Under the pieces are notes generated by a model. It saw only the letters and a list, made by a program, of their open reading frames with translations, was not told where the DNA came from and made no database searches. From positions 169,259-233,258 of the forward strand of contig JAMCTH010000003.1 of the NCBI GenBank assembly GCA_023379025.1: a stretch of DNA of 64,000 nt, read 5' to 3'. A program made the position numbers and the translations under genes. Positions 1-58,943 of the stretch are shown in pieces. The DNA comes from Patescibacteria group bacterium (GTDB taxonomy: Bacteria; Patescibacteriota; Microgenomatia; UBA10105; UBA927). How positions within the stretch are numbered: position 1 is the stretch's first letter; each line of letters starts with the position of its first letter.

Positions 1-186
1 GAGCATAACCTCGGAGACCATGATCCGGTATGGATCGTGGGTATGCCGCCACGGCAGATCCCTCCTGTGGATCTTCCACCAGAAAAAAATCCTCTGCTGA
101 AAAGAGCGCACGTCGCTCTGCTTTAGTATCACGACGTTATTCTATCAAAACCTGCGGCCCTACGGCGTCTATAGTACAATACGCTC

Positions 187-1047
187 ATGAAAGCGGGAAC
201 GGTATGTCTCATCGGGCGCCCGAATGCGGGCAAGTCGACACTCGTCAATGCGATTGTCGGACACAAGGTTGCCATAACTTCTCCTAAGCCTCAGACCACC
301 CGCTTCCCGATCCGCGCCGTCTATGAAGACAACCGCGGCCAGATCCTCTTCACGGATACGCCCGGCATATTTGCCAAAGCCTCCGATACCCTCTCACGGA
401 AAATCAATCCGGAAGCCGAATCCGCGCTCAGGGACGGCGCCGATCTCATCCTCTATGTTATAGACCATACCCGCCAGAAAAGCTTCGAAGAAAACAGGGC
501 GCTCGGCATCGTCCGTAAATCCGGCATCCCGACCATCCTCGTCATCAATAAAACGGACATCCGGGAACCGACATATGAAGTGCAGTATAAATTCATGGAA
601 TCCGAATGCGCTGCGGTTGTCCGCCTGTCGGCGCAAAAACATACCCACATAAACACACTCCTTGAAGAAATTTTTGCCCGCCTGCCGGAGGGGGAACCTT
701 TCGTTGATACCTCCGCACTCGCCCAGCCGGCAATACATATGGACAGCAAAACGTACCTTGCGGAAATCATCCGCGAGAAGGCGTTCCTGTTTCTCCGTCG
801 TGAAGTACCGTATAGCCTGACCGCGGTCGTAGACGACATCGAGGAGCGGGATAACGGGGTACTCTACATCAAGGCACGCATACTCACTTCTGCGGACCGC
901 TATAAGTCCATGATCATCGGTGCCGGAGGACGGATGGTGAAAGAAATAAGCATGGCAGCACGGAAAGAACTGGAGACCGCAAGCGGGAAGAAAGTATTTG
1001 TGGACCTCTCGGTCGAGACGGATGGGCACTGGATGGACTTCATTTAG
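187..1047 (+). CDS. era: GTPase Era
   Basis: N-terminal G1 motif GRPNAGKST, then DTPG; C-terminal KH-like region; 286 aa. Confidence 0.9.
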   Translation: MKAGTVCLIGRPNAGKSTLVNAIVGHKVAITSPKPQTTRFPIRAVYEDNRGQILFTDTPGIFAKASDTLSRKINPEAESALRDGADLILYVIDHTRQKSFEENRALGIVRKSGIPTILVINKTDIREPTYEVQYKFMESECAAVVRLSAQKHTHINTLLEEIFARLPEGEPFVDTSALAQPAIHMDSKTYLAEIIREKAFLFLRREVPYSLTAVVDDIEERDNGVLYIKARILTSADRYKSMIIGAGGRMVKEISMAARKELETASGKKVFVDLSVETDGHWMDFI

Positions 1048-1546: not shown

Positions 1547-2947
1547 CTATAAACCAATTTCTAATCTCTTAAGCGTTTCCTCTTTCCCCAAAATTTCCAG
1601 CGATTCGAGAAGTGGCGGTCCGACGGTTTTCCCCGTGACCGCAACCCTGATTTCCATAAAGAGATCCCTTGCCTTGATACCCGCCTTTTCCGAAGCGCTC
1701 CTCACTGCCCGCTCCATCGCTTCATGATCCCAATCCGTCATCTCCAGTGCCTTTTTCCCGATGCTCAGGACATCCGCTGCGAACGGCCGTTCAAATCCTT
1801 TCGGCCGCTCAAAGAAAAACCCTGCCAGAGAACGGTATTCCTTAAGCGTACTCATCCGCTCCTTCACGAGAGGGATGGTACGTGAAACCAGGGAGTGTTC
1901 GAGTGTTCCTATAGAAGCATCAAAAGCAACAAGCCGCTCATGCAGCTCTTTATCATCAAGAGCACGGATGTACTGGCCGTTCACCCAATCGAGCTTTTTA
2001 AGGTCAAACCTCGGAGCCTGTGAACCGATGGACCGGATATCGAAAAGCCGGATAAACTCGGCAAGCGGATATATCTCCTTCCCTTCCGGATGATGCCAGA
2101 CGATATTGGAAAGGTAGTTAAGAACCGCTTCCGGCAGGTAGCCGCCTTTCCGGTAATACTCGACGGATGCATGGCCGTGCCGTTTGGAGAGTTTCCCCTT
2201 CCCGTCTTCGTTGAGGATGAGGGGCAGATGCCCATGAACCGGCATATCCCATCCGAAGTACCGGTAAAGAAGGACATGTTTCGGCGTGGACGAGATCCAT
2301 TCCTTGCCGCGGAATACATGGCTTATCTCCATGAGGTGGTCATCGACAACCACCGCCAGATGGTACGTCGGATATCCGTCAGATTTTAAGATAACCTGGT
2401 GATCGATGACATCGCTGTCAAATTCAATATGGCCGGCGATCAGATCGTCAAATGCGATCGTTTCATGTTCAGGCACCTTCATCCGTATGACGTACGGTAT
2501 ACCGTCTTTAAGCCTGGCACGAACTTCGTCTGCCGTCAGCTTCAGACAGGTTTGGTCATACATCGGCGGCTGATGGTTTTTTTCCTGCGTTTTCCGCATC
2601 TCATCCAGGCGCCCGCGCGTACAAAAGCAGTGATAGGCATACCCTTTCCCTATCAGGGAGTCGACATATTTTCTATAAAGGGGAAGGCGCTCCGACTGAC
2701 GGTACGGCGCATACGGACCGCCCACTTTCGGACTCTCGTCCGGCGCGAGACCGAACCAGGCAAACGCATCGTAGATAATCCCTTCCGCGCCCTCCACAAA
2801 CCGTGCCCTGTCCGTATCCTCCAGCCGCATGACAAACTGTCCGTGGTTCTGGCGGGAAAAGGCAAAATCAACAAGCACCTGGTAAATCGTCCCGATATGC
2901 GGAAAACCTGTCGGAGAAGGAGCGATTCTTGTGCGGACGGTGTCCAT
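1547..2947 (-). CDS. gltX: Glutamyl-tRNA synthetase (class I)
   Basis: HIGH-type motif PTGFPHIGT and KMSKS-type motif KLSKRHG. Start trimmed to MDTVRTRIAPSPTG. The upstream part of the track ORF has no homology. Confidence 0.85.
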   Translation of the reverse strand: MDTVRTRIAPSPTGFPHIGTIYQVLVDFAFSRQNHGQFVMRLEDTDRARFVEGAEGIIYDAFAWFGLAPDESPKVGGPYAPYRQSERLPLYRKYVDSLIGKGYAYHCFCTRGRLDEMRKTQEKNHQPPMYDQTCLKLTADEVRARLKDGIPYVIRMKVPEHETIAFDDLIAGHIEFDSDVIDHQVILKSDGYPTYHLAVVVDDHLMEISHVFRGKEWISSTPKHVLLYRYFGWDMPVHGHLPLILNEDGKGKLSKRHGHASVEYYRKGGYLPEAVLNYLSNIVWHHPEGKEIYPLAEFIRLFDIRSIGSQAPRFDLKKLDWVNGQYIRALDDKELHERLVAFDASIGTLEHSLVSRTIPLVKERMSTLKEYRSLAGFFFERPKGFERPFAADVLSIGKKALEMTDWDHEAMERAVRSASEKAGIKARDLFMEIRVAVTGKTVGPPLLESLEILGKEETLKRLEIGL

Positions 2948-2992
2948 AGTTACATTGATTCTACCATCACCTTCTCCTATACTCAAAGAAGA

Positions 2993-4048
2993 ATGGCTTC
3001 TCTCACCGAAACTGCTTACTATACGAGACGCACCATCAACTGGCTGATCCTTGCCGTCATCGCGTATTTTCTCCTCAGGATCTTCTGGAGCATGTTTGTT
3101 GCCGCATGGCTTATCCTTTTTCCTCCGAAAGCCCCTCCCCCGAACCACAGGTTCGGGAAACTTCCCGCGCTCGTATTTCCGCCGGTGGCGTCAGGCTCGG
3201 CAAAACTGAAATTCTCCCTCCAGACGATCCAGGGAGACCTGCCTGCCGCATCGGCATCCGCCAATGTCTATCTCATGCCCAAGTCTCCGGCAAACCTACT
3301 CGCTATGCCCAATACCCAGGCCTTTGCCCAGCAGCTCAAATTCGACCCGACGCCCATACAGGACACCAAGGATATATTTCACTTCAATGATCCGGCGTTT
3401 CCGCTCCGGACGCTGACCTACAACATCGTATCGGATAATTTCCGGCTGTTTTATGACTTCACGAAAGAACCGAGCCTGTTTAACGACCATGCGCTCCCAT
3501 CGACCGATGAGGTGAAAACCGACGCCATAGCCCAAATGCAGAACCTCAGTATCTATGTTCCGGATCTGAAACTCGGCACCAGGAGCGTATCGTTTCTCCG
3601 CTATATCAACAGCCAGCTCATGCCCGCGACGAGTCTTTCCCAGGCGGACGCAGAACGCATAGACTTTTTCCGTCAGGAAGTCGGAGACACGAAAATTCTC
3701 CCTCCCGATCCGGATGAAGGTTCCGTATACCTCATATACTCGGGCTCTTTGACATCCCAAAAACAGCTTATTGATTTTACCTACCGCTTCTGGCCGATCG
3801 ATTATGAAACCTACGGCACGTATGCGCTCAAAACCAGTTCCCAGGCATGGCAGGATCTTCAGGGCGGCAGAGGATATATCGCGCGCTACCCCAACAACGG
3901 CTCAACGACCGTAACCGTCCGGAACATCTACCTTGCATACTACGACAGCTATGATCCGGAGACGTATCTCCAGCCGATCTTCGTCTTTGAAGGAGACTAT
4001 GGATTTATGGCTTATGTGCCGGCTGTGGATCCTGCCTGGACGGAATGA
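2993..4048 (+). CDS. Hypothetical membrane-anchored protein (N-terminal TM helix, large extracytoplasmic domain)
   Basis: Start chosen at MASLTETAYY... where the hydrophobic stretch INWLILAVIAYFLLRIFWSMFVAAWLILF begins. The first approx. 200 codons of the track ORF overlap gltX antisense and are discarded. No recognisable family. Confidence 0.45.
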   Translation: MASLTETAYYTRRTINWLILAVIAYFLLRIFWSMFVAAWLILFPPKAPPPNHRFGKLPALVFPPVASGSAKLKFSLQTIQGDLPAASASANVYLMPKSPANLLAMPNTQAFAQQLKFDPTPIQDTKDIFHFNDPAFPLRTLTYNIVSDNFRLFYDFTKEPSLFNDHALPSTDEVKTDAIAQMQNLSIYVPDLKLGTRSVSFLRYINSQLMPATSLSQADAERIDFFRQEVGDTKILPPDPDEGSVYLIYSGSLTSQKQLIDFTYRFWPIDYETYGTYALKTSSQAWQDLQGGRGYIARYPNNGSTTVTVRNIYLAYYDSYDPETYLQPIFVFEGDYGFMAYVPAVDPAWTE

Positions 4049-5183: not shown

Positions 5184-7088
5184 TTACGCGGCTTCGCGGG
5201 AAAACGAACCGACAACGGGACGGGCGACGTTTTCGTAAGACTTCTCTGCCATGGAAACGGATTTGGTATGGAGACCCGCGTTAAAGACGATCGTATCGTT
5301 TTTCCGGACGGCATCATCCATATAGAGCGGCACGTCGAATATATGGCCGAACGGCGGTACGGCGCCGATTGGGACGGATGTAACCCGAAGCACCTCATCG
5401 GGTGTCGCCATACGGAGGTCTTTTATTCCGTAAAGTTTTTTGAACGCATGCATGTCTATTTTCCTGTCTCCGGGAAGTACGACCATGAGCGGCTTGCCGT
5501 CACCGTAAAGAAGAATCGCCTTGGCACCGGCAGAGAGAGACGTATGTCTCACGTCCGCCGCTTCCCGGGATGTCGTAACGGCTTTATGTTCATGCGTCTT
5601 GTATTCACTATGGCCCTCGTCCAGAAGCTGTGTGATCGTCCTATACACAGATTCCCCGCCGGTCTTCTTTTGGGAAACGACAGAAATTCCAAGCTCTTTA
5701 AGTTGCCCGTCCGACGCCTGACTCGGCGCATCCATGACGCTCGTCTGCCCTCCCGCTGAAGCGGGAAATGCCATAACCTCCCGAATGCTCGGTTCACCAA
5801 GAGCAGTAAAGAGAAAACGGTCTATCCCCGGCGCGATGCCGCCGTGCGGCGGGACTCCGTACGTAAACGCCGTCAGCATATGGTCAAACTGTGCTTTCTG
5901 CTCTTCGGTAAACCCGATAAGATCAAATACTTTTTCCTGGACGTGTCTCTCATGAATTCTTATGCTTCCCCCGCCGACTTCATAGCCGTTCAGGACCATG
6001 TCGTGCTGCAGTCCCCGGACCTTCATGGGATCGGTCTCAAGAAGCGGTATGTCATCCGGATGCGGAGCGGTAAACATATGATGCGACGGCGCAAACCTCG
6101 CTTTTCCCGATCCGTGATAGAAGTCTTCTTCTGATTGCTCGGTAAAGAGCGGAAAGTCGACTGTCCACGCAAATGCAAGCTCATTGGGGTCTTTTTTATC
6201 GCGCCGCAGGTCCGGCTTATCGGTGCCATAGCGGGCAATCGCTTCCTTATGAGGGATCCTGGGCCAGGGAGTCTCGGTAATGTGTTTTTCCGGAAAAAGT
6301 TCCCCGACAAGCTTCGTAAACAGATCTTCGGCCAGAGTTAAAATATCTTCCTGGGTGACAAACGACAGCTCCATATCCAGCTGCGTAAACTCTCCGTACG
6401 CCCGGTCTTTTCTGGGATCCTCATCGCGGAAACATCGCGCAAGCTGAAAGTAGCGCTCGAGTCCGGCAACCATCAGGAGCTGCTTGTACTGCTGGGGAGA
6501 CTGCGGAAGCGCATAAAATTTCCCTTTCTGGAGGCGCGAAGGCACGATGAAATCCCTGGCCCCTTCCGGCGTGGTTTTTGTCAGAATGGGCGTTTCCACC
6601 TCGACAAAATCACGCTCGGTGAGGTAATTGCGGATAAAGGTGGTCATGCGGGACTTGAGACGGAGGTTTCTTGTCATGCGGGCGCGCCGGATATCGAGAT
6701 ACCGGTATTTCATCCGGATTTCCTCGTTTACCTCATAGCCGTCGGTATCGATAGGAAACGGAAGCTCCCTGGCTTTGCTGATAACCGTAAGTTTTTCTAC
6801 TTCAACTTCCACCTGTCCCGTCGGGATCTTGGGATTTACCATGGAGGCCGGACGCTCCTTCACGACCCCGGTGACTTCGATGACTGCTTCCGGCCGGGCT
6901 TCCGACAGGGTCTGACCACGCTCGCTTTTAAGGTCTGACCCTGAATAAACAAGCTGGACGATCCCCGAGCGGTCACGGAGGTCAAGGAAGGTGATTTTCC
7001 CATGATCCCGGCGGGTAGTCACCCACCCCTTTAGGATAACTTCCTCACCGACCTTTTTGACTGTTTCAACCGCTAGCGTCCGCTTCAT
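5184..7088 (-). CDS. aspS: Aspartyl-tRNA synthetase (short archaeal/ND type, no GAD insertion) fused to a C-terminal YbaK/ProX-like aminoacyl-tRNA deacylase domain
   Basis: Class II motifs FRDEDPRKDRAYGEFTQLDMELSF and GGGSIRIHE...GIAPGIDRF. Canonical AspRS C-terminal end MAFP...QLKELGISV. A further approx. 165 aa (YRTITQLL...KAILLYGDGKPLMVVLPGDRKIDMHAFKKL...SVPIGAVPPFGH...IVFNAGLHTKSV) has a YbaK-like pattern. Confidence 0.8.
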   Translation of the reverse strand: MKRTLAVETVKKVGEEVILKGWVTTRRDHGKITFLDLRDRSGIVQLVYSGSDLKSERGQTLSEARPEAVIEVTGVVKERPASMVNPKIPTGQVEVEVEKLTVISKARELPFPIDTDGYEVNEEIRMKYRYLDIRRARMTRNLRLKSRMTTFIRNYLTERDFVEVETPILTKTTPEGARDFIVPSRLQKGKFYALPQSPQQYKQLLMVAGLERYFQLARCFRDEDPRKDRAYGEFTQLDMELSFVTQEDILTLAEDLFTKLVGELFPEKHITETPWPRIPHKEAIARYGTDKPDLRRDKKDPNELAFAWTVDFPLFTEQSEEDFYHGSGKARFAPSHHMFTAPHPDDIPLLETDPMKVRGLQHDMVLNGYEVGGGSIRIHERHVQEKVFDLIGFTEEQKAQFDHMLTAFTYGVPPHGGIAPGIDRFLFTALGEPSIREVMAFPASAGGQTSVMDAPSQASDGQLKELGISVVSQKKTGGESVYRTITQLLDEGHSEYKTHEHKAVTTSREAADVRHTSLSAGAKAILLYGDGKPLMVVLPGDRKIDMHAFKKLYGIKDLRMATPDEVLRVTSVPIGAVPPFGHIFDVPLYMDDAVRKNDTIVFNAGLHTKSVSMAEKSYENVARPVVGSFSREAA

Positions 7089-7304: not shown

Positions 7305-7459
7305 GTAGTTCACAATTAGACCTATGCAAAGCGCTTCCGTCCACTTTATTCAGACCCTTATGAGCCTCCGAATTGGAGAGAGGGTTTGTGTGGCGGCTGC
7401 GTAACGAATAAAAACAAAGTCATTCCAAAACAAACCCTCCAGAAGACGGAGGGTTTTTT
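7305..7459 (+). ncRNA. Candidate small RNA or 5' leader (approx. 155 nt) bounded by a consensus promoter and an intrinsic terminator
   Basis: Consensus promoter immediately upstream. Perfect terminator CCCTCC-agaagac-GGAGGG + TTTTTT at 7435-7459. No ORF over 26 aa. No match to SRP, 6S or tmRNA motifs that I can see. Confidence 0.3.
7432..7459 (+). terminator. Rho-independent terminator (6-bp GC stem, 7-nt loop, T6)
   Basis: aaaCCCTCCagaagacGGAGGGtttttt read directly. Confidence 0.6.
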
Positions 7460-7500: not shown

Positions 7501-7737
7501 ATGGAAGCAGATGTTGATACAGGAACAGGAAGTGGCTATCAGACAAGCGCTGCCTTTTTTTGCGCAGGCGAATCAATGCCTCTCCCAACGCAATATACAT
7601 CCGAAGATATATTCAGACAGGCAGAAACTCTTTTTGCTCTTGCCAGTTCAGGCATACTTGAAAATCCTGAAGAAGCATTGGAAAGGGCAGAAAGCTTATT
7701 AAACTATGCAGCAGGACTCAGCGCCGGCGGAAAGTGA
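7501..7737 (+). CDS. Hypothetical small acidic protein (78 aa)
   Basis: Start ATG at 7501, 9 nt after a GGAGGTG RBS; MEADVDTGTGSGYQ.... No family recognised. Sits just downstream of the terminator above. Confidence 0.35.
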   Translation: MEADVDTGTGSGYQTSAAFFCAGESMPLPTQYTSEDIFRQAETLFALASSGILENPEEALERAESLLNYAAGLSAGGK

Positions 7738-16194: not shown

Positions 16195-17412
16195 GTGAAC
16201 CGGAAATTTCCCGCAGCAGTCCTTTCGGCCGCATTGTTTCTGGGGTTTTTCCTTTTTTACCGGTCGCGGATCACCGGCAACACCGTCCTCTTCTTTACGG
16301 ATGAAGCCTACTGGGTAAGTACCGCAAACATCGTACCGGTCCTCCTCCGGGGCCGGTTCAGCGACCGCTTCTGGAACGAGTATTACGGATTTACCAACTT
16401 CAACGGCGCCAAATTCATATTCGGCATAGCGCTCCGGATCCTTCCGCATGGCGACCCGTCCCTGGCCGGCACCGCTCCCATGACCTACTACAGATGGGTG
16501 CCGTACGATGGCCGGCCCTTCCCCCGCGGAAACCCGTTCTACGCTTCATTGACTGATGCGCGGCTCACAAGCGCGTGGTTTGCCGCCGGAGCGGTCGCGG
16601 CTTTGGCCGTACTCACGTACCTGGCAAGCGGATCGCTTTGGGCCATGGTACTTGCGGGAGCAATCCTTGGCATGCATCCGATTACGGCCTATGCCGCCGA
16701 ACACGCGTTTGCCGACAGTTTCCTCCTGTTTTTTGAGGTGCTGTTTCTCCTGTCGCTTGCCGTCCCGTTTCGCACGAACGGCAACGCACCGGAGGGCCGG
16801 TATGCGCTCATAAGCGGCATCCTCATCGGAATCCTCACGGCAATAAAGCTTAATGCCCTCCTCTTCCTTCCGGTTTACGGCGTATGGACGGGAACGGCCA
16901 TCGCGCTTTCGGACGGCGGCCGCAGCCCCGATACTTGGGGGATGAGGGTCTTCCGGGCGCTTTGCACTGCCGCGGCTGCTGCCGGATTCACGTTTCTCCT
17001 CCTTGAACCCAACCTCTTCTTTTACCCCGGGCTCCCGCTTGGGGCGATGATCGAAGGAAGACTGAGGATTACCCGGGAACATATCGCGTACTTCGGAAGA
17101 CTTACGCCTTCCCACGTACTCCTGACCGTTCCGGCGAGACTCCGTTCCCTGGCCGGACGGGTGTTTCCTCCGTGGATGCTGGTCCTGACGCTTGCCGGAG
17201 CCGGAGCGCTCACCGGCGCACTCCTGCGCCGGTCACGGAACATCCCCTTCCTCATCCTGTTTCTTGTGTCAGGAACCGTAACGGGCGGCATCATGCTTTC
17301 CTACATCGTCTTTGACGAACCGCGGTATTATCTGCCGATCCTGCCGTTTCTCATCGCCGCCTGCATCTGCGCTATCGCGGCGGCGGGCAAACCGCTACCC
17401 GAACGCGGCTGA
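16195..17412 (+). CDS. Polytopic membrane protein, GT-C-type glycosyltransferase-like (PMT/ArnT-like)
   Basis: 405 aa with approx. 10 predicted TM segments. N-terminal loop with a conserved acidic motif (FTDEAYW). Apparent GTG start. Confidence 0.45.
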   Translation: MNRKFPAAVLSAALFLGFFLFYRSRITGNTVLFFTDEAYWVSTANIVPVLLRGRFSDRFWNEYYGFTNFNGAKFIFGIALRILPHGDPSLAGTAPMTYYRWVPYDGRPFPRGNPFYASLTDARLTSAWFAAGAVAALAVLTYLASGSLWAMVLAGAILGMHPITAYAAEHAFADSFLLFFEVLFLLSLAVPFRTNGNAPEGRYALISGILIGILTAIKLNALLFLPVYGVWTGTAIALSDGGRSPDTWGMRVFRALCTAAAAAGFTFLLLEPNLFFYPGLPLGAMIEGRLRITREHIAYFGRLTPSHVLLTVPARLRSLAGRVFPPWMLVLTLAGAGALTGALLRRSRNIPFLILFLVSGTVTGGIMLSYIVFDEPRYYLPILPFLIAACICAIAAAGKPLPERG

Positions 17413-26427: not shown

Positions 26428-28608
26428 ATGATCTCACCTGTGGTTCTGCATATTAAAGTCCCCAGGGAAAACACAAAAGGCCCGGTAGCCATGGAGGGCG
26501 TCTATGACGGCCTTGATGAACTGTTTCGCCACGAACAGACACCAGTCGCTTTTGAAATAGTTCTCAAAAACGGATTTCTGTATTTTATTGTTGTTTGCGA
26601 GCGCAGGGTAGTTGATCTGGTACGTGGACAATTATATTCCCAGTACCAAAATCTTGAGCTTGAAGAAATTTCTGATTACTCTGGCACATTCTTTGCCTGG
26701 CCAAGCATTACAACACTCACCCTCAAACGACCCCATGCTTATCCGCTCCGCACCTACCGGAACCTCCCGAACGATTTTCTGACGAATCTCTCGGGGATGG
26801 CCACTTCCGTCGGCAAAAACGAATCTGCAGCAATACAGATTATTCTCCGAGCAATAGATGCCGATTCCTTGTCCTTTAAATCGGAACGGTTTTTGGAGAC
26901 TTCGTGGAGATCAGCACTCAGAAAAAATTCATCACTCCGTGAACTTCTGGAAGAGGAGGAAAGGAAAAAATTGCAAAAATCTTTATTTCGCGCAACTATA
27001 CGCATTGCAACGGCTACAGGATCTAAATCCGATGCACTAGGCGCCTCGATCGCATCGTTATTTAAAATACTTGATAACGAACACTTAAACGAACTGAAAA
27101 TCTGGAATGTGTCCCATCGCACACAGACGGCGGAGGAGTATAAAAGCCGCGTCATGACCAAGAATCTTCTCCTGTCTTCCGAAGAACTGGCAACAATCTA
27201 CCACTTTCCCTATTCCGGAGCAAATATATCGCAGGTCGCCGTCTCAAAAACTAAAATGGCAGAGCCTCCGACTAATCTTCCGGTATCACCTGAGGCCATC
27301 CCATTTGCGGTCACAAACTTCCGCGGCAGCGCTACTCAGTTCGGCATAAAACGTGAAGACAGAAGAAAACATCTGTATATCATCGGGAAGACCGGTGTCG
27401 GCAAAAGTAAACTCATAGAACTTCTGGCTCTTGCTGACATCCGTGAAGGCAAAGGATGCGTCATCATGGATCCGCACGGCGACTTGGCAGAGGAGCTCCT
27501 CCGTTACATCCCGCGGGAACGGCTGTATGACATCATCTATTTTAACCCGGCAGACCGCGAGTATCCCATGGGATTTAATCCGCTGGAGAGTGTCGGATCG
27601 TTCGAATACAGACAAAATGTGGTTGCCGGATTCATCGCGATATTCAAAAAACTTTTTGGCTTCACCTGGAATCAGCGGCTCGAACATGTCCTACGGTTCA
27701 CTACACTCGCACTTCTCGATGTACCCGGTACGACCGTACTCGGAATTACCAAAATGCTTTCTGAAACGGATTACAGGCAGGAAATTGTCGCACAAATTCA
27801 GGATCCTCTGATCAAAAAATTCTGGACAACAGAATTTTCGTCCTGGAATGAGCAGTACGCCGGTGAAGCCATAACGCCGGTCATCAATAAAGTCGGACAA
27901 TTCGTCGCGAATCCGCTCATCAGAAATATTGTTGGACAGGGAAAGAGTACCGTAAAAATCGACGAGCTGATCAATAATGAAAAAATTGTCATTGCAAATT
28001 TTGCGATCGGAAAACTCGGAGAGGAAAACAGTGCACTTCTCGGCGCCATGTTCATAACGAAACTCTGGCAGGCGGCAGTGGCCAGGGCATCTCTCCCCGA
28101 AGGGGAACGAAAAGACACGTTCCTCTATGTCGACGAATTTCAAAACTTTGCAACCAGCGCCTTTGCCAATATCCTTTCAGAAGCAAGAAAATACAAACTG
28201 AACCTTACGGTCGCTCATCAGTATATGATGCAACTGCCCGAAGAAGTGCGGTCTACCGTCTTCGGAAATGTCGGATCGATTATTGCCTTCCGAGTCGGCG
28301 GCGAAGATGCTTCCGTACTTGAAAAAGAATACAGTCCGACATTCTCATCTCAGGATTTTATGAATCTCGATATGAGAAATTTCTATATCAAGATGACCAT
28401 CGACGGTCAGACAGCGCTCCCGTTTTCCGGAAAAACACTCGATTTCCCCAAACCTGACGCAGATCTCCTGACGGATGTCGTACGGATCTCGCGGGAACGC
28501 TGGGCACACCCAAGAAGCGACGTTGAACGCGAACTTATGTCTGATACGGAAACTCCTTCTCCGGCACCTGAAGCAAAGGCGCAAACATTCTCCGAACCTA
28601 TTATCTAA
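26428..28608 (+). CDS. FtsK/HerA-superfamily P-loop ATPase (VirB4/VirD4/TraG-like coupling-type ATPase), 726 aa
   Basis: Approx. 300-aa N-terminal domain with no TM. Walker A HLYIIGKTGVGKSKL followed by DPHGD. Walker B FLYVDEFQNF. ARKYKLNLTVAHQYMMQL motif (RKYG-like) typical of TraG/VirD4/HerA ATPases. Confidence 0.6.
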   Translation: MISPVVLHIKVPRENTKGPVAMEGVYDGLDELFRHEQTPVAFEIVLKNGFLYFIVVCERRVVDLVRGQLYSQYQNLELEEISDYSGTFFAWPSITTLTLKRPHAYPLRTYRNLPNDFLTNLSGMATSVGKNESAAIQIILRAIDADSLSFKSERFLETSWRSALRKNSSLRELLEEEERKKLQKSLFRATIRIATATGSKSDALGASIASLFKILDNEHLNELKIWNVSHRTQTAEEYKSRVMTKNLLLSSEELATIYHFPYSGANISQVAVSKTKMAEPPTNLPVSPEAIPFAVTNFRGSATQFGIKREDRRKHLYIIGKTGVGKSKLIELLALADIREGKGCVIMDPHGDLAEELLRYIPRERLYDIIYFNPADREYPMGFNPLESVGSFEYRQNVVAGFIAIFKKLFGFTWNQRLEHVLRFTTLALLDVPGTTVLGITKMLSETDYRQEIVAQIQDPLIKKFWTTEFSSWNEQYAGEAITPVINKVGQFVANPLIRNIVGQGKSTVKIDELINNEKIVIANFAIGKLGEENSALLGAMFITKLWQAAVARASLPEGERKDTFLYVDEFQNFATSAFANILSEARKYKLNLTVAHQYMMQLPEEVRSTVFGNVGSIIAFRVGGEDASVLEKEYSPTFSSQDFMNLDMRNFYIKMTIDGQTALPFSGKTLDFPKPDADLLTDVVRISRERWAHPRSDVERELMSDTETPSPAPEAKAQTFSEPII

Positions 28609-29513
28609 TTCAGGTACTGAAAACCCGGATAAAACGACGTCATCACTTCTGATACCGTTCTCGTATATTCCTCCGGCGTATACTGCCTGTTCAAAATACA
28701 GTTCTTTGCGTGGGAAAGTTCCGCACATCCGAAACAATTGTGACAGTCAACGCAATTAGCAAGAAACGCGCTGTCATAACAATTACTCGACCAGTCCGCG
28801 AACCTGCAATTGTAGAGCTTTGAAGAGTCGCGACACTCATAACATAGTTCGACCTGGGCGCATTGCGTCAGATCGTAGGAGTTTTTACAATAAAAACTGT
28901 CGTATAGGTAGCCGCAGTCTTCGTCATGGGCCGCGTCGTAACAGAGATAGAGGTTTAATGCGTAGTGGACATGATTCCCGTAGCTGCTGTTCTCCGAATG
29001 GGTGACATTGGACGGTCCAAAGGGATATGTTCTAATGAGATTTTTAAGATCGAGAAGATTCTGATCGGAAGGACGGGCAAGAAGCCCGGCAAGCCGTCTC
29101 TTATATTCTTCCTGGGTATATTGCCTGTTACATATACAATACTGCTTCTGCCTGAGATGCGTGCACCCGAAGAGATCATGGCTGTCTATACAATCCCAAC
29201 AAAAATGGCTGTCATATATCCTGGCACAGTAGTCGAGATATGTACTGTTGTATGCTCTAAGACAATCAACACACCCGTAAAGCTTCTCGCAATCCACATC
29301 ATAATCGCCGTCAACACAGTCAACACACCGTACGCTGTCGAAAAGATACAGGCACCGTTTATTATATGCGCAGTCAAAGGTATAGTAGCAGTCCGCAGAA
29401 TGATAGGTGTATCCGGTATAATCGCAATTTTCGTTATCGATATTCCCGGTCGGAGGCCGTGGGAGCGATCGCCGAAGCATGCTATATGCTGAAAGAAAAT
29501 CGGTGAACGTCAT
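28605..29513 (-). CDS. Cysteine-periodic repeat protein (approx. 36 Cys in 303 aa, C-x8-C / C-x2-C register, two half-repeats)
   Basis: Start at MTFTDF, 4-nt overlap with the upstream zinc-ribbon gene. Repeated units such as CGYLYDSFY/CKNSYDLTQ/CRDSSKLYN/CRFADWSSN/CYDSAFLAN/CVDCHNCFG. Both halves end in LRQKQYCICNRQYTQEEY / NCILNRQYTPEEY. No signal peptide. No family recognised. Confidence 0.55.
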   Translation of the reverse strand: MTFTDFLSAYSMLRRSLPRPPTGNIDNENCDYTGYTYHSADCYYTFDCAYNKRCLYLFDSVRCVDCVDGDYDVDCEKLYGCVDCLRAYNSTYLDYCARIYDSHFCWDCIDSHDLFGCTHLRQKQYCICNRQYTQEEYKRRLAGLLARPSDQNLLDLKNLIRTYPFGPSNVTHSENSSYGNHVHYALNLYLCYDAAHDEDCGYLYDSFYCKNSYDLTQCAQVELCYECRDSSKLYNCRFADWSSNCYDSAFLANCVDCHNCFGCAELSHAKNCILNRQYTPEEYTRTVSEVMTSFYPGFQYLN

Positions 29514-29800
29514 TTTTGGAGAATATCCGTCGTATCGTAATACTGCCGGTAACACGTCTGGCAGAGGATTTTTGCCGAAACCGTTGCAGGATCGTACGTC
29601 GTCACCATGGCCGCACCGCACTGTTGACAGGTCGTCCGGAATAATTTACGCTCCCCCCGTCCCCGCAGACGCCGGAGCTGCCGGTCTGATGGACACAGTG
29701 TCGGCATTGGCAAATTCATTTTTTTAAGAAATTCCTCCTCCTGGGATATCACAAGAAATTTCTGACCGCAGGACGCACACACGTGGGTAGTATCTGCCAT
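29510..29800 (-). CDS. Small zinc-ribbon protein (three CxxC pairs)
   Basis: Start at MADTTHVCASCGQKF. Further CxxC at TCQQCG and LCQTCY. 96 aa. Directly downstream of the permease gene, translationally coupled to the next gene. Confidence 0.45.
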   Translation of the reverse strand: MADTTHVCASCGQKFLVISQEEEFLKKMNLPMPTLCPSDRQLRRLRGRGERKLFRTTCQQCGAAMVTTYDPATVSAKILCQTCYRQYYDTTDILQK

Positions 29801-33063: not shown

Positions 33064-33312
33064 ATGGATAGTTCACCTCCTCTCGCCCTCCGAAGATGAA
33101 GCGATGGAGGGTATCGCTCTCAGTAATACTTTTTTTCTGCGCGCCGCACTGAGATAGGCTTGCGGGGCAGAAATAATTCGGGCAGAAGGCTAGAACAAGA
33201 AAAAAAATTTTTTGTCCCGTTACGGCGGGATCTATGAGGCACTGTAAAGAATTTGGAGTGTCCTGTCAAGATATCAAAACGAAGAAGCTGTCAGGAGGTA
33301 CGATGTGTTCTA

Positions 33313-34848
33313 TTACTTGGCCGTTTCGACCGCCCGCAGCTCACGGATTACGGTGATCTTTACCGTACCCGGGAAGGTCATCTTTTCCTCAACCTCGTCT
33401 TTGATATCCCGTGCCATAATCACCGCCGCCGCATCATCTACTGTCCCGGGATCAACGATAACCCGGAGCTCCCTGCCCGCCTGAAATGCATAGACCTCTT
33501 TCACCCCTTTGTGAGTTTTTGCGACATTTTCAAGGTCCGTAAGCCGCTTGATATATTCCTCATAATTTTCGTATCGTGCCCCGGGGCGGCTGCCGGAAAT
33601 GGCATCAGCGATATAGACGAGCGTGGATTCTACGGAGGAAAACGGCGTGTCCTCGTGGTGCTGTGCAACACAATCGATGACGCGCTGCGGCATGCCGTAT
33701 TTTTTGAGCATCTGAATTCCCAACTCAACGTGGGACCCTTCCTGATCGGCGACGACTTTCCCGATATCATGAAGAAGGCATCCGAGCCGGACGATATTGA
33801 CGTCCGCATGCACCTCCTCGGCAAGAGCGATGCCGATTTTCGTCTCCTCAAGGGTATGGGCGATCATGTTCTGCCCGTAGGAAAACCGGTATTTGAACCG
33901 CCCAAGAAGCGCAACCAGCGGCATCGGGAGGTTATACACGCCGACGGCGTGACACAGTTTCTGCCCTTCCTCAAGCATAATCCGCTCGATTTCCTTCTTT
34001 ACCTGCTCTATGACTTCCTCGATGCGACCCGGCTGGACCCGGCCATCGCGAAGAAGCCGCTCAAGCGCCACCCTCGCTATCTCGCGGCGTACCGGATCGA
34101 AGCAGGAAAGCCGGATAACCCCCTCTTCGTCCAGGTCCACATCTACGCCGCTTGCCGTTTCAAAAGCGCGGATGTTCCTTCCCTCTTTCCCGATAATTCT
34201 GCCTTTTACGTCCTCGTCCGCGATTTTTATAACCGACACGGTATATTCCGGCACATAGTCCGTAGCTCCGTGACGCATGGCATCGACAAGAATCTGTTTA
34301 GCTTTTTCTTCTGCCTCTTCTTCTGCTTTGACGGTCGCCTCCCGGATTTCCTTGGCGACTTCTTCCCGCAGTTTTTCGCGCAGCGCCGTAAGAATGAAAT
34401 TTTTAGCCTCGTCCCTCGTAAGATGAGCGGCGCGCTCCAGTTTCTCGAGCTGTTCCGCTTTGATCTTTTCCATGTCGGAAAGCCGTTTTTGTATGTCAGC
34501 CTCCGCTTCCCGGATCCTCCCGTCCCGCTCGTCCAGTGCTCCTTCGCGGCGGTCTATGGCCTCAAGTTTCCGGCGCAGATCTTCTTCTGCCTCCCGCCGG
34601 ATACGGTGCGCCTCATCCTTTGCCTCAATGACCAGTTCCCTTGCCTGGGTTTCTGCCTGTTTCAGCACGCCGGCGAGATCCTGCGTCTCGGGGGGATTTT
34701 CTTTGTGGGTTTCTTTTTGCTCAGCCTGCGGCGGGCGGGAAACCTGAGGCTGCACCGGGTGCTTTCCGGATGCGGATTCCTTTTTCGTTTTAGGAAGCGG
34801 TTTTTTCGGATTGACAAGTCCTGACAACGTCTTGAGTACGTCAAACAT
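33313..34848 (-). CDS. rny: Ribonuclease Y (KH + HD domains)
   Basis: Coiled-coil region; KH motif IIGKEGRNIR; HD motif LLHDIGK. 511 aa. The N-terminus lacks an obvious TM anchor. Confidence 0.85.
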   Translation of the reverse strand: MFDVLKTLSGLVNPKKPLPKTKKESASGKHPVQPQVSRPPQAEQKETHKENPPETQDLAGVLKQAETQARELVIEAKDEAHRIRREAEEDLRRKLEAIDRREGALDERDGRIREAEADIQKRLSDMEKIKAEQLEKLERAAHLTRDEAKNFILTALREKLREEVAKEIREATVKAEEEAEEKAKQILVDAMRHGATDYVPEYTVSVIKIADEDVKGRIIGKEGRNIRAFETASGVDVDLDEEGVIRLSCFDPVRREIARVALERLLRDGRVQPGRIEEVIEQVKKEIERIMLEEGQKLCHAVGVYNLPMPLVALLGRFKYRFSYGQNMIAHTLEETKIGIALAEEVHADVNIVRLGCLLHDIGKVVADQEGSHVELGIQMLKKYGMPQRVIDCVAQHHEDTPFSSVESTLVYIADAISGSRPGARYENYEEYIKRLTDLENVAKTHKGVKEVYAFQAGRELRVIVDPGTVDDAAAVIMARDIKDEVEEKMTFPGTVKITVIRELRAVETAK

Positions 34849-36561: not shown

Positions 36562-37098
36562 TTAATGACATTTTCGATATTCAATCCGTCTTCTGTACAT
36601 TTTCTCCGTTAATCCACCTTCTTTTTCATGTTTCTCCATTAAAGAAGCAACGAGTCTCTTAAGCAAATACCCATCAAGATTACAAAAGGTAAGAAGCATA
36701 TTAGCTGCTTCTGCAGGAGAACTAGGAAGCATTGGGGTATTTAGGGATGTTTGGGTTACCCAAACTACCCAAAATTCCCTAAACCGTTTAATTCTTTCAT
36801 CATTTTTATCCCAAATCGGTAAATTTCTCTGTCTCAAAAAATCCTGGTAGTCTTTCGTTAGTTCTTCGTTTGAGCCGTACGCAATCCCCGCAAGCTTGAT
36901 ATATGCTTTCAGAGACGGGTTGGAATATCCTTCTGCAACATTTTGACAATTCGACCGGGCGGCTTGAACCATTTGATCGTGTGTTCTGGATTTTTTATCT
37001 ATATAGAGGTCGCAAAACTTGGCCGTTAAATCATGAATAACTTTTCCGAGCATAAATGCAGCCAAATATTCGTATCCTGGGCGGGTTATATTTTTCAT
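36562..37098 (-). CDS. Four-helix-bundle protein (23S rRNA intervening-sequence protein family; Avd-like fold) with C-terminal extension
   Basis: QMVQAARSNCQNVAEGYSNPSLKAYIKLAGIAYGSNEELTKDY matches the family signature Q.RRAA.S...NIAEGY...S.KE...L.IA.GS..EL. Confidence 0.65.
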   Translation of the reverse strand: MKNITRPGYEYLAAFMLGKVIHDLTAKFCDLYIDKKSRTHDQMVQAARSNCQNVAEGYSNPSLKAYIKLAGIAYGSNEELTKDYQDFLRQRNLPIWDKNDERIKRFREFWVVWVTQTSLNTPMLPSSPAEAANMLLTFCNLDGYLLKRLVASLMEKHEKEGGLTEKMYRRRIEYRKCH

Positions 37099-37166: not shown

Positions 37167-37187
37167 AGACCTTTACACCAAAATTAG

Positions 37188-37261
37188 TCGGGGTGACTCG
37201 ACTTGAACGAGCAACCTTTCGCACCCCATGCGAATGCGCTAGCCAATTGCGCCACACCCCG
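37188..37261 (-). tRNA. tRNA-Pro (anticodon GGG), 74 nt, CCA not encoded
   Basis: Manual fold: acceptor CGGGGTG/CACCCCG, D-arm GCGC-AATTGGCTA-GCGC, anticodon stem TTCGC/GCGAA with loop AT-GGG-GT, T-loop TTCAAGT, discriminator A. Confidence 0.75.
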
Positions 37262-58877: not shown

Positions 58878-58943
58878 AGTCCTCCTTTTTACAAAAAATC
58901 ACTCCGCCCTATGGAAAGAGCGTATGATGCATTCTACCATAGG

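What the first reader, a model, noticed from the sequence alone, without database searches (positions are those of the whole stretch)
5184..7088. AspRS with a fused C-terminal YbaK/ProX-type deacylase domain
The AspRS catalytic core (motifs 2/3, QLDME, GIAPGIDRF) is the short form without a GAD insertion, typical of non-discriminating archaeal-type enzymes. After the normal C-terminal end (QLKELGISV) there are about 165 extra residues with a YbaK-like pattern (LLYGDGKPLMVVLPGDRKIDMHAFKKL...SVPIGAVPPFGH...IVFNAGLHTKSV). A cis-acting editing domain on AspRS is unusual, because AspRS is not known to need editing. It may be a freestanding trans-editing factor (Cys-tRNA(Pro), Ala-tRNA(Pro) or other mischarged tRNA) that was captured by fusion in a reduced genome.
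Basis: partly seen in the sequence, partly recalled or inferred. Interest (0 to 1): 0.55.

Follow-up and report, generated by a model that had tools for sequence, protein, structure and literature searches.

The report
AspRS fused to tRNA deacylase domain
This gene really does join the enzyme that loads aspartate onto tRNA to a proofreading-type domain that strips wrong amino acids off tRNAs; the combination is conserved in hundreds of ultra-small bacteria and archaea but apparently undescribed, and aspartyl-tRNA synthetase is not known to proofread.

Summary
Window 5184-7088 (-) is one uninterrupted 634-aa ORF: OB anticodon-binding domain, class II AspRS core, a roughly 34-residue flexible linker, then a 157-residue YbaK/ProX-fold (INS-superfamily) domain (Pfam PF04073, E 1.5e-29; model pLDDT 94). 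It is not a sequencing artefact. An independent assembly gives the identical 634-aa protein, and 119 of the 120 closest homologs share the architecture. NCBI's separate 154-aa "hypothetical protein" is a gene-calling artefact.

- The AspRS is bacterial-type with the GAD insertion cleanly deleted, not archaeal-type.
- It carries His29, the residue found in non-discriminating mycobacterial AspRS.
- The deacylase is not YbaK proper. It belongs to an uncharacterised clade typified by Legionella lpg1207 (PDB 3OP6), with ProXp-x the next closest. The catalytic Lys and GXXXP loop are invariant.

The fusion is widespread in CPR bacteria. A GAD-containing version occurs in Woesearchaeota-labelled MAGs, in one case next to gatCAB. 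In the closest relatives the domain is also found split off or lost.

Most likely it is a tethered aminoacyl-tRNA deacylase acting on products of a non-discriminating AspRS. The substrate is unknown. Novelty: new variant of a known kind. Interest about 0.6.

The parts
5184..7088 (-). Complete fused gene: AspRS (GAD-less, bacterial type) plus a C-terminal INS-superfamily deacylase. 634 codons plus the stop codon at 5184-5186.
   Evidence: ORF list; Pfam; 100% identical protein from an independent assembly; coordinates checked.
6780..7040 (-). N-terminal OB-fold anticodon-binding domain (aa 17-103).
   Evidence: PF01336, E 9e-16.
7002..7004 (-). His29 codon in the motif 'RRDHGK', a candidate marker of non-discriminating (tRNAAsp plus tRNAAsn) specificity.
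   Evidence: Non-discriminating mycobacterial AspRS (4rmf, 4o2d) have RRDHGG; discriminating T. thermophilus AspRS1 has RRDLGG. All 12 fused CPR enzymes have His. All 10 loci with a neighbouring asnS have Leu or Met. All 107 GAD-containing fusions have His.
5760..6728 (-). Class II (IIb) catalytic core, aa 121-443, including motif 2 (FRDEDPR...) and motif 3 (GGIAPGIDRF).
   Evidence: PF00152, E 2e-108; NF001750 bacterial aspS, 610 bits against a cutoff of 443.
6189..6212 (-). Site where the bacterial GAD insertion is missing (aa 293-300, DLRRDKKD).
   Evidence: Pairwise alignment with the GAD-containing fused homolog P0272: about 128 residues are absent. No GAD hit in Pfam.
5658..5759 (-). Connector, aa 444-477: the AspRS C-terminal tail (with a short helix at QLKELG) plus a variable linker. 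Predicted to be flexible.
   Evidence: pLDDT 48-60 in the full-length model, pTM 0.63. This region varies in length and sequence among homologs.
5187..5657 (-). YbaK/ProX-fold aminoacyl-tRNA deacylase domain (aa 478-634). The Pfam tRNA_edit match covers aa 501-615, nt 5244-5588.
   Evidence: PF04073, E 1.5e-29; AF2 pLDDT 94.3; Foldseek hits 2cx5, 1wdv, 3op6 and 1dbu at TM 0.74-0.80; family profile against 3op6, E 4e-34.
5520..5522 (-). Lys523 codon, aligned with the lysine in the K(S/T)L motif of solved ProX and YbaK proteins and taken to be the catalytic lysine of the INS superfamily.
   Evidence: Invariant in 68/68 and 52/52 sequences, and 106/107 in the DPANN-type fusions. Aligned to solved ProX/YbaK proteins. 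The importance of the YbaK lysine (K46) is cited in PMC3532385.
5352..5366 (-). GAVPP, the GXXXP loop of the INS superfamily (aa 575-579).
   Evidence: G575 is invariant and P579 near-invariant.
5547..5549 (-). Arg514 codon, a clade-specific basic residue nine positions before the catalytic Lys. Together with invariant His501 and Thr506 it distinguishes 'type A' deacylases.
   Evidence: R in 44/52 sequences, 107/107 and every fused form. It is replaced by Q, L or T in the 'type B' adjacent genes.

Best explanation
A genuine single gene encodes a bifunctional protein.

The N-terminal 443 residues are a bacterial-type aspartyl-tRNA synthetase that has lost the GAD insertion, a state shared by all 80 CPR/Patescibacteria-type relatives sampled. 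It carries the His29 marker of non-discriminating enzymes. It is therefore expected to charge both tRNAAsp and tRNAAsn with aspartate, with GatCAB converting Asp-tRNAAsn to Asn-tRNAAsn.

A flexible connector of about 34 residues tethers a 157-residue INS-superfamily (YbaK/ProX-fold) domain with an intact catalytic lysine and GXXXP loop.

The most likely mechanism is that this domain is an active aminoacyl-tRNA deacylase. Tethering keeps it at one copy per synthetase subunit and close to the 3' end of tRNAs bound or just released by AspRS. There it hydrolyses a wrongly acylated species linked to AspRS activity, meaning a non-cognate or non-protein amino acid on tRNAAsp or tRNAAsn, or Asp on a tRNA where it should not persist. 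Class II synthetases release product quickly, so the editing is probably re-sampling in trans rather than strict cis translocation.

Shown: the gene is real, the fold, conservation of the catalytic residues, the wide distribution, the linkage to ND-type AspRS, and the neighbourhood with gatCAB in one relative.

Inferred: catalytic activity, the non-discriminating specificity of this particular enzyme, and that the substrate is made by AspRS.

Unknown: the identity of the substrate.
For: Integrity of the fusion.

Conservation: 119/120 closest homologs are fused; 10 of 80 species-representative CPR loci are fused; the best-listed hits to P0272 include 107 full-length GAD-containing fusions in Woesearchaeota/Nanoarchaeota-labelled MAGs.

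Catalytic competence: K523, G575 and G605 are invariant, and H501, T506 and P579 are near-invariant, down to about 35% identity. The fold is confirmed.

Link to AspRS rather than chance. The same 'type A' deacylase is found:
- fused to GAD-less AspRS;
- fused to GAD-containing AspRS;
- free-standing beside an archaeal-type 'aspartate--tRNA(Asn) ligase' (L002).
A second INS-like subfamily ('type B') sits immediately downstream of aspS in four further CPR-type loci, including two Doudnabacteria, and within 1-3 kb in two more. Free-standing homologs outside this group show no aaRS linkage.

ND-type AspRS: His29 against the PDB enzymes; a perfect split of His versus Leu/Met with adjacent asnS; gatC-gatA directly downstream of aspS in L031, with gatB about 3 kb further on; gatC, an amidase-family gene in the gatA position and gatB 2.5-7 kb from the fused gene in L088.

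Flexible tether.

Precedent: in established knowledge, aaRS-fused editing domains (ProRS-INS, ProXp-ala-ProRS, ThrRS, AlaRS, PheRS) correct errors of the synthetase they are fused to. Fast product release and trans-editing by class II fusions is discussed in PMC11286415.
Against: No substrate is identified. AspRS is not known to need editing, and characterised INS-superfamily enzymes remove small neutral residues (Ala, Cys, Abu, Ser, Thr; PMC11295145), not Asp.

The domain is dispensable in close relatives. It is absent in L001, whose AspRS is 84% identical. In L089/L090 it is cut off by a single in-frame TAA in the linker with no Shine-Dalgarno sequence before the next ATG. Most CPR AspRS (64 of 80 loci) have no deacylase nearby.

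Type A free-standing homologs are common in other phyla in unrelated contexts, which suits a general trans-editing factor.

Neither asnS nor gatCAB lies in the surveyed part of this window or in the flanks of the CPR fused loci, so the ND assignment for this genome rests on one residue marker.

The AF2 model gives no confident docking of the domain on the synthetase (pTM 0.63).
Confidence: 0.55

Rival explanations
1. The domain is a general trans-editing factor that merely rides on AspRS. It would be a broad-specificity deacylase like ProXp-x or ProXp-ST, for example acting on Ala- or Abu-tRNAPro or on Ser/Thr-tRNAs made by other synthetases. On this view the gene happened to lie downstream of aspS and became fused by loss of a stop codon. 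Fusion would give co-expression and proximity to tRNA traffic, but the substrates would not be AspRS products.
For: The closest characterised relative is ProXp-x (2cx5), which has broad tRNA specificity and prefers A73 (PMC11295145). The window's tRNAPro(GGG) has C1:G72 and A73. Type A free-standing homologs are widespread with no aaRS linkage. The domain is easily lost or split with no visible change in the AspRS. JGI automatically labels many homologs 'Ala-tRNA(Pro) deacylase'. The same deacylase is also seen joined to its other neighbour, Peptidase_S11, in P0302 and P0305, which suggests neighbour fusions can be incidental.
Against: The association with AspRS recurs in three different AspRS architectures and in two deacylase subfamilies, across CPR and DPANN. 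That is hard to explain by chance adjacency. Every well-studied aaRS-editing-domain fusion edits that synthetase's own errors. The clade scores far better against uncharacterised lpg1207 (121 bits) than against ProXp-x (65 bits), and it has its own invariant His501, Thr506 and Arg514.
Confidence: 0.28
2. The domain is a non-catalytic appended tRNA-binding or retention module. It would have been co-opted to hold the acceptor end of Asp-tRNAAsn for hand-off to GatCAB, or to compensate structurally for the lost GAD domain, and would not hydrolyse anything.
For: GAD lies beside the active site, where ThrRS has its editing domain, and has been proposed to help retain Asp-tRNAAsn (PMC3367201). In this protein GAD is missing and a new domain is present. 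AspRS C-terminal fusions to a transamidation component exist as an NCBIfam family (AspRS-GatC, NF009460).
Against: The catalytic Lys and GXXXP loop are invariant across hundreds of sequences, which a pure binding module would not need. Fusion and GAD loss are uncoupled. GAD-containing fusions are abundant, and GAD-less unfused AspRS is the norm in CPR.
Confidence: 0.07
3. The fusion is an artefact: two genes (aspS plus an independent ybaK-like gene) joined by a sequencing or assembly error in this window.
For: The NCBI annotation of what appears to be the same genome lists only a separate 154-aa protein, P0121 (MCL4359852.1), identical to residues 481-634 apart from the GTG-to-Met start. A real split exists in a close relative (L089/L090).
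Against: There is no stop or frame change in the window. A Logan assembly gives the identical 634-aa product. 119/120 homologs are fused. The same annotation pattern occurs at L003, where the DNA plainly holds an intact 630-aa ORF, so the split is a gene-caller artefact. The internal GTG is not a conserved start: other fused loci have GTC, GTA, GTT, CTT, CTA, TCT or ATT at that codon and no shared Shine-Dalgarno sequence.
Confidence: 0.01

Closest known systems
INS editing domain of bacterial prolyl-tRNA synthetase, and the N-terminal ProXp-ala-ProRS fusions of Plasmodium and Trypanosoma
   Same: Same fold and superfamily (PF04073), and a lysine and GXXXP loop at the aligned positions. In both cases the domain is covalently joined to a class II synthetase to hydrolyse mischarged tRNA (PMC11295145 and PMC11286415).
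   Different: The partner synthetase here is AspRS, not ProRS. The domain is appended at the C-terminus through a flexible linker, not inserted between motifs 2 and 3 or placed at the N-terminus. The sequence clade is different and the substrate is unknown.
Free-standing INS-superfamily deacylases: Legionella lpg1207 (PDB 3OP6, uncharacterised) and ProXp-x (T. thermophilus TTHA1699, PDB 2CX5/2Z0K)
   Same: Closest in sequence and structure. The family profile scores 121 bits against 3op6 and 65 bits against 2cx5, with TM about 0.8. Length and secondary structure are the same.
   Different: Those are single-domain proteins. The 2024 review says INS-superfamily members apart from ProRS-INS are single-domain. 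lpg1207 has no assigned activity and has His where this clade has Arg514. ProXp-x removes Abu or Ala and lacks His501 and Arg514.
YbaK (Cys-tRNAPro deacylase)
   Same: Same fold and catalytic lysine.
   Different: Fails both YbaK equivalog models by a wide margin: 50 bits against a cutoff of 153, and 24 against 243. It should not be named YbaK.
Bacterial non-discriminating AspRS of the transamidosome pathway (P. aeruginosa, H. pylori, mycobacteria)
   Same: Bacterial-type sequence and the His at the anticodon-domain position shared with mycobacterial ND enzymes. Relatives sit next to gatCAB.
   Different: Lacks the GAD insertion that characterises bacterial-type AspRS and that contacts or retains tRNA in those systems. 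Carries an extra deacylase domain.
Other C-terminal add-ons to synthetases of the indirect pathways: the AspRS-GatC bifunctional protein (NCBIfam NF009460) and Deinococcus GlnRS-YqeY
   Same: A module related to handling of aminoacyl-tRNA is appended to the C-terminus of the synthetase (PMC1865053 abstract).
   Different: Those modules promote amidation or tRNA binding. This one has a hydrolase fold and hydrolase catalytic residues.

Membership tests
Bacterial-type aspartyl-tRNA synthetase (class IIb) | Passes the curated bacterial aspS equivalog models | tested here: met
   NF001750 scores 609.8 bits against a cutoff of 443. TIGR00459 scores 534.8 against 373.85.
Bacterial-type aspartyl-tRNA synthetase (class IIb) | N-terminal OB anticodon-binding domain plus class II core with motifs 1-3 | tested here: met
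   PF01336 and PF00152. Motifs 2 and 3 are visible in the alignment.
Bacterial-type aspartyl-tRNA synthetase (class IIb) | GAD insertion domain between motifs 2 and 3 | tested here: not met
   No PF02938 hit. There is a 128-residue gap relative to GAD-containing P0272. The same holds in all 80 CPR-type loci. This is a GAD-less variant of the bacterial type.
   NF003483 scores 229 bits against a cutoff of 353. TIGR00458 scores 204 against 368. By contrast the L002 enzyme passes at 496 bits.
Non-discriminating AspRS (functional class) | Anticodon-domain residue pattern of ND enzymes (His at the position of window residue 29) | tested here: met
   The window has RRDHGK. ND mycobacterial enzymes have RRDHGG, and discriminating T. 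thermophilus AspRS1 has RRDLGG. His versus Leu/Met separates perfectly with adjacent asnS. That P. aeruginosa H31 is this determinant is recalled from memory and was not verified here.
Non-discriminating AspRS (functional class) | The same genome has GatCAB and lacks AsnRS | not testable with these tools
   Only 64 kb of the genome is available, and none of these genes was found in it. Relatives L031 and L088 have gatCAB beside His-type aspS.
Non-discriminating AspRS (functional class) | Aspartylates tRNAAsn in vitro | not testable with these tools
   Biochemical assay required.
INS superfamily / YbaK-ProX fold (PF04073) | Significant match to the family model | tested here: met
   PF04073, 103 bits against a cutoff of 25.5, E 1.5e-29, covering model positions 1-117 of 123.
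INS superfamily / YbaK-ProX fold (PF04073) | YbaK-like three-dimensional fold | tested here: met
   AF2 pLDDT 94.3. Foldseek matches 2cx5, 1wdv, 3op6, 1dbu and 2dxa at probability 1.00 and TM 0.74-0.80.
INS superfamily / YbaK-ProX fold (PF04073) | Conserved catalytic lysine and GXXXP loop | tested here: met
   K523 and G575xxxP579 are invariant or near-invariant, and align to the corresponding positions of solved ProX/YbaK proteins.
INS superfamily / YbaK-ProX fold (PF04073) | Hydrolyses aminoacyl-tRNA | not testable with these tools
   Requires deacylation assays.
YbaK proper (Cys-tRNAPro deacylase) | Passes the YbaK/EbsC equivalog models | tested here: not met
   TIGR00011 scores 50.5 bits (54.5 for the domain alone) against a cutoff of 153.25. 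NF007951 scores 23.8-27.3 against 243.
ProXp-x (TTHA1699-like) | Closest sequence relationship to the characterised ProXp-x representative | tested here: inconclusive
   2cx5 is the best characterised hit (65 bits), but uncharacterised 3op6 scores 121 bits. No curated ProXp-x model is available, and the clade-specific His501 and Arg514 are absent from TTHA1699 (alignment).
ProXp-ala (PrdX; Ala-tRNAPro deacylase) | Close similarity to C. crescentus ProXp-ala | tested here: not met
   5vxb/1vjf give E 0.22-0.26 with the single sequence and only 39 bits with the family profile. The JGI labels 'Ala-tRNA(Pro) deacylase' are automatic.

The most novel reading that the evidence does not exclude
AspRS would join the editing synthetases. 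The appended domain would be a dedicated proofreader of the indirect asparagine pathway. It would hydrolyse Asp-tRNAAsn that escapes GatCAB, or Asp placed on other GUN-anticodon tRNAs by an enzyme with relaxed reading of position 36. That would protect Asn codons from aspartate in ultra-small CPR and DPANN cells, whose GAD-less or horizontally acquired AspRS may channel poorly to the amidotransferase. This would be the first deacylase found to target the obligatory mischarged intermediate of a tRNA-dependent amino-acid pathway, and the first INS-family enzyme to accept an acidic residue. The clade-specific invariant Arg514 and His501 would be candidate carboxylate binders.
Probability: 0.15. 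Interest if true: 0.85.

Novelty: new variant of a known kind. Interest (0 to 1): 0.6.

Why it matters
AspRS is a textbook example of a synthetase that does not proofread, and current reviews list INS-type deacylases as single-domain proteins except when joined to ProRS. Here the same deacylase clade is tied to non-discriminating-type AspRS in three different synthetase architectures and in two domains of life. That implies an unrecognised fidelity problem around aspartate/asparagine decoding, or a new use of an editing fold, in the organisms with the smallest known genomes.

The question is directly testable with one recombinant protein and a K523A control. It would also assign a function to an uncharacterised INS-superfamily clade (lpg1207/3OP6-like) that has thousands of members.

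There is a practical point as well. NCBI's pipeline sometimes annotates these genes as a lone 'hypothetical protein' or 'aminoacyl-tRNA deacylase' and calls no AspRS protein. That can make CPR genomes look as if they lack aspS.

Tried and rejected
(1) Frameshift or missed stop at the junction. Rejected: the alignment is colinear, an independent assembly is identical, and homologs are fused.

(2) P0121 as evidence of a truly separate gene. Rejected: the same annotation pattern at L003 overlies an intact 630-aa ORF.

(3) Internal translation start at Val481 (GTG) giving a free deacylase from the same mRNA. Rejected: the codon is GTG only in the window and L007, and there is no conserved Shine-Dalgarno sequence.

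(4) Archaeal-type AspRS. Rejected by the NCBIfam scores.

(5) The deacylase as a structural replacement for GAD. Rejected: GAD-containing fusions are abundant, and GAD-less unfused AspRS is the CPR norm.

(6) A single origin of the fusion. Not resolved. In a neighbour-joining tree of the AspRS core, fused forms fall in at least four places among unfused ones. The deacylase tree is too noisy to decide.

(7) Arg514 as a marker tracking ND versus discriminating AspRS. It only separates deacylase types A and B, and is also present in free-standing homologs of other phyla.

(8) T-box or other leader RNA upstream of aspS. None found; the weak Phe_leader hits reflect only a terminator-like hairpin.

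(9) Finding asnS, gatCAB, proS or dtd in the window. None found in the 30 ORFs scanned or by tblastn for asnS and gatCAB.

(10) Literature. Nine full-text searches and several papers gave no description of an AspRS-INS fusion. Assignment to ProXp-7, -8 or -9, and the published ND determinants, therefore could not be checked.

(11) The genome-contig scan did not recover the window's own genome; the best hit was 72% identical.
Full report
**1. The observation**

The minus strand of the window holds an uninterrupted ATG-initiated ORF from 7088 to 5184, 634 codons long. Pfam finds three domains:
- an OB-fold anticodon-binding domain, aa 17-103;
- the class II D/K/N catalytic core, aa 121-443, E 2e-108;
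- the aminoacyl-tRNA editing domain PF04073, aa 501-615, E 1.5e-29, 103 bits against a gathering score of 25.5.

**2. Is the fusion real?**

Three lines of evidence say yes.
- The protein aligns colinearly with 12 fused homologs straight through the junction. Only a short variable linker separates '...QLKELGISV' from the first helix of the deacylase.
- Of the 120 best hits among 5.8 billion proteins, 119 have the same three Pfam domains. They are 61-75% identical and come from NCBI, JGI, ENA and Logan assemblies, named Gottesmanbacteria, Woesebacteria or Patescibacteria where named at all.
- A Logan assembly of a public run encodes a protein 100% identical over all 634 residues.

One apparent contradiction was resolved. 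NCBI holds a 154-aa 'hypothetical protein M1555_01165 [Patescibacteria group bacterium]' that equals residues 481-634 with the internal GTG read as the start. The same pattern appears at locus L003. There the DNA holds an intact 630-aa fused ORF, yet the NCBI annotation lists only the last 166 aa as 'aminoacyl-tRNA deacylase'. This is a gene-calling artefact. The internal GTG is not a conserved start, because the other fused loci have GTC, GTA, GTT, CTT, CTA, TCT or ATT at that codon and no shared Shine-Dalgarno sequence.

**3. Anatomy of the synthetase half**

It is not. It passes the bacterial aspS equivalog (610 bits against a cutoff of 443), matched in two stretches, and fails the archaeal-type model (229 bits against 353). 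Comparison with a GAD-containing fused homolog shows a clean loss of about 128 residues: window 1-295 aligns to P0272 1-292, and 298-631 to 421-744.

A scan of one genome per species returned 80 loci, nearly all labelled Patescibacteria or CPR (a few carry other labels; see section 6). Every one of their AspRS genes is GAD-less. GAD loss is therefore a lineage trait and is not connected with the fusion.

**4. Discriminating or not?**

Alignment of the anticodon-binding domain to solved structures gives the following:
- window: 'RRDHGK';
- non-discriminating mycobacterial enzymes (4rmf, 4o2d): 'RRDHGG';
- discriminating T. thermophilus AspRS1: 'RRDLGG'.

From memory, this is the position of P. 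aeruginosa H31, a published ND determinant. I could not access that paper, so this is a lead, not a test.

Across the CPR loci the position behaves as a marker:
- all 10 loci with a bona fide asnS gene beside aspS have Leu or Met;
- none of the other 73 sequences has Leu or Met;
- all 12 fused enzymes have His.

His-type aspS is followed by gatC-gatA, with gatB about 3 kb further on, in L031, and by a GatA that passes the equivalog cutoff about 3 kb downstream in L049. The window enzyme is therefore predicted to be non-discriminating. This rests on inference, because neither asnS nor gatCAB lies in the surveyed part of the 64-kb window.

**5. Anatomy of the deacylase half**

Modelled alone with a 68-sequence alignment, the domain reaches pLDDT 94.3 and pTM 0.87. 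It matches T. thermophilus ProX, APE2540, Legionella lpg1207 and H. influenzae and E. coli YbaK at TM 0.74-0.80.

It is not YbaK proper (50 bits against a cutoff of 153). It is far from ProXp-ala. The family profile scores:
- 121 bits against lpg1207 (3OP6, a structural-genomics protein with no assigned function);
- 65 bits against ProXp-x;
- 55-57 bits against YbaK.

The residues invariant down to about 35% identity are His501, Thr506, Arg514, Lys523, Gly575...Pro579 (the GXXXP loop), Phe602 and Gly605. Lys523 aligns with the lysine of the K(S/T)L motif in solved ProX and YbaK proteins and is taken to be the catalytic lysine. This conservation argues for a catalytically active hydrolase.

In the full-length model both modules are confident. 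Residues 444-477 are not (pLDDT 48-60) and pTM is 0.63, so the connection looks like a flexible tether with no predicted fixed docking.

**6. Distribution and evolution**

An exhaustive search of 1.84 billion cluster representatives with the domain found 3,499 relatives, 903 of them at E < 1e-10. Most are free-standing proteins of 150-170 aa.

Among the 80 species-representative loci:
- 10 carry the fusion: Gottesmanbacteria-like, Dojkabacteria, Torokbacteria, a Microgenomates genome and others;
- 4 have a deacylase as a separate gene immediately downstream of aspS;
- 2 have one within 1-3 kb.

Those six unfused genes belong to a different INS-like subfamily, which I call 'type B'. It lacks Arg514 and has a 'TAyDlA' motif. 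Every fused domain is 'type A'.

Type A is also fused to GAD-containing AspRS. That variant is a large family of about 744 aa. NCBI labels it mostly Woesearchaeota or Nanoarchaeota. All 107 full-length members have His29, Arg514, Gly575 and Pro579, and 106 have Lys523. In one such MAG the fused gene lies 2.5-7 kb from gatC, an amidase-family gene in the gatA position, and gatB.

In L002 a type A deacylase is free-standing, in the same slot upstream of the Peptidase_S11 gene. It sits beside a 430-aa archaeal-type 'aspartate--tRNA(Asn) ligase' on the other strand.

By contrast, four free-standing type A homologs (one Roizmanbacteria, one Rokubacteria, two unnamed) sit in unrelated contexts.

The closest relatives of the window gene show a decay series:
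- fused: the window and L004-L006;
- split by a single in-frame TAA in the linker, with no Shine-Dalgarno sequence before the next ATG: L089/L090, identical in two samples;
- domain gone, with Peptidase_S11 following 10 nt after aspS: L001, whose AspRS is 84% identical.

A neighbour-joining tree places fused forms in at least four positions among unfused ones. The deacylase tree is unresolved.

**7. Mechanism**

What is shown:
- a real bifunctional gene;
- a hydrolase fold with its catalytic residues under long-term conservation;
- a flexible tether;
- recurrent genetic linkage of INS-type deacylases to aspS, specifically to ND-type AspRS of three architectures.

What follows from established knowledge:
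- Every studied synthetase-editing-domain fusion corrects that synthetase's own errors.
- Free-standing INS enzymes lack tRNA-body recognition and gain specificity from partners.
- Class II synthetases release product quickly and so edit largely in trans (PMC11295145, PMC11286415).

My best reading (confidence 0.55) is a tethered aminoacyl-tRNA deacylase that re-samples tRNAs charged by the non-discriminating AspRS.

The substrate is not established. Candidates are a non-cognate or non-protein amino acid (including D-Asp) on tRNAAsp or tRNAAsn, or misplaced Asp.

The main rival (0.28) is a general ProXp-x-like trans-editing factor that is fused only because of where its gene lies. Supporting that rival are the domain's dispensability, the wide free-standing distribution of type A, and the small neutral substrates of all characterised relatives.

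A non-catalytic retention module (0.07) is disfavoured by the invariant catalytic residues and by the existence of GAD-containing fusions. An artefact (0.01) is excluded.

**8. Comparison with what is known, and novelty**

The fold and chemistry are those of the INS superfamily. The new feature is the partner: AspRS, a synthetase with no known editing. Also new are the position of the domain (a C-terminal tether) and the clade, which is uncharacterised.

Nine full-text searches found no description of this architecture. A 2024 review states that INS-superfamily members other than ProRS-INS are single-domain proteins. The proteins are present in public databases under routine names, such as 'aspartate--tRNA ligase' and, in UniRef, 'Aspartate--tRNA(Asp/Asn) ligase'. 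The architecture is therefore visible but apparently unexamined.

I rate it a new variant of a known kind, with interest 0.6. It would surprise aaRS specialists and can be tested directly. However, the function is unproven and the domain can evidently be lost.

Noticed in passing
window 5184-5648 (P0121) and L003 6001-6501 (P0145): NCBI annotations of two Patescibacteria MAGs list only the C-terminal deacylase part of an intact fused ORF as a separate small protein, and no AspRS protein is on record for the rest. Automated annotation may under-report aspS in CPR genomes and inflate the number of 'free-standing' deacylases.
   Followed up: yes
L088 10001-19247 and proteins P0389-P0507: A large family of about 744-aa AspRS (bacterial type, with GAD) plus deacylase fusions is attributed to Woesearchaeota/Nanoarchaeota (DPANN archaea). 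In L088 bacterial-type gatC, an amidase-family gene in the gatA position, and gatB lie nearby. This suggests transfer of the whole Asn-pathway module between CPR-like bacteria and DPANN, or mis-binning.
   Followed up: partly
L089 2978-3022 and L090 (identical): In a close relative the fusion is interrupted by a single in-frame TAA in the linker, followed 39 nt later by an ATG with no Shine-Dalgarno sequence. In L001 the domain is gone altogether. This looks like a snapshot of domain loss.
   Followed up: yes
L002 4399-6552: The bacterial-type aspS slot is occupied by a 430-aa archaeal-type 'aspartate--tRNA(Asn) ligase' on the opposite strand, while the type A deacylase stays as a free gene before Peptidase_S11. 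This appears to be in-situ replacement of the synthetase.
   Followed up: partly
L011, L023, L046, L048 (immediately downstream of aspS); L030, L078 (1-3 kb away): A second, distinct INS-like deacylase subfamily ('type B': no Arg514, 'TAyDlA' motif) is encoded next to aspS in Doudnabacteria and Parcubacteria-type genomes. In four of these loci the AspRS is Leu/Met-type and AsnRS is adjacent.
   Followed up: partly
CPR loci L004-L083, AspRS residue equivalent to window His29: His versus Leu/Met at this anticodon-domain position separates perfectly with an adjacent asnS gene: 10/10 against 0/73. It could serve as a simple predictor of discriminating versus non-discriminating AspRS in CPR.
   Followed up: partly
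proteins P0302, P0305, P0242, P0251, P0352: Other architectures of the same deacylase subfamily: tRNA_edit plus Peptidase_S11 (a fusion with the downstream neighbour, possibly an artefact), three tandem tRNA_edit domains (448-491 aa), and Usp plus tRNA_edit.
   Followed up: no
window 7501-7737 (+): A small divergent ORF of about 78 aa (MEADVDTGTGSG...) with a strong AAGGAGG Shine-Dalgarno sequence lies between recJ and aspS. A bidirectional terminator-like hairpin (CCCTCC...GGAGGG flanked by T and A runs) lies at about 7425-7455. A small opposite-strand gene occupies the same gap in L003.
   Followed up: partly
window 37187-37261 (-): ARAGORN finds a well-formed tRNA-Pro(GGG) with C1:G72, A73 and no encoded CCA. 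The Rfam scan returns nothing there even at E <= 1, which is probably a quirk of the tool. Directly beside it, at 36562-37098 (-), is a '23S rRNA-intervening sequence protein' homolog.
   Followed up: partly
window 2399-4048 (+), 16195-17412 (+), 28605-29621 (-), 33253-34824 (+), 57729-59069 (+): Long ORFs with no Pfam match. A gene of about 350 aa with no Pfam hit, on the strand opposite Peptidase_S11, occupies the same position as 2399-4048 in L001, L002 and L003; sequence similarity between them was not checked. 57729-59069 overlaps the EF-G gene on the other strand and may be spurious.
   Followed up: no
window 26428-28608 (+): A 726-aa protein with weak TrwB/VirD4-type coupling-protein and HerA/DUF87 ATPase matches, flanked by ABC-2 transporter genes. 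It could be a remnant of a conjugation or DNA-translocation system.
   Followed up: no
L005, L007, L009, L012, L031, L049 and other loci: Many TPA MAG records that carry typical CPR-type aspS loci are titled 'uncultured Gammaproteobacteria', 'Pseudomonadales', 'Methanosarcinales' or 'Woesearchaeota'. Some of these taxonomic labels are probably wrong, so organism names in these records should be treated with caution.
   Followed up: no
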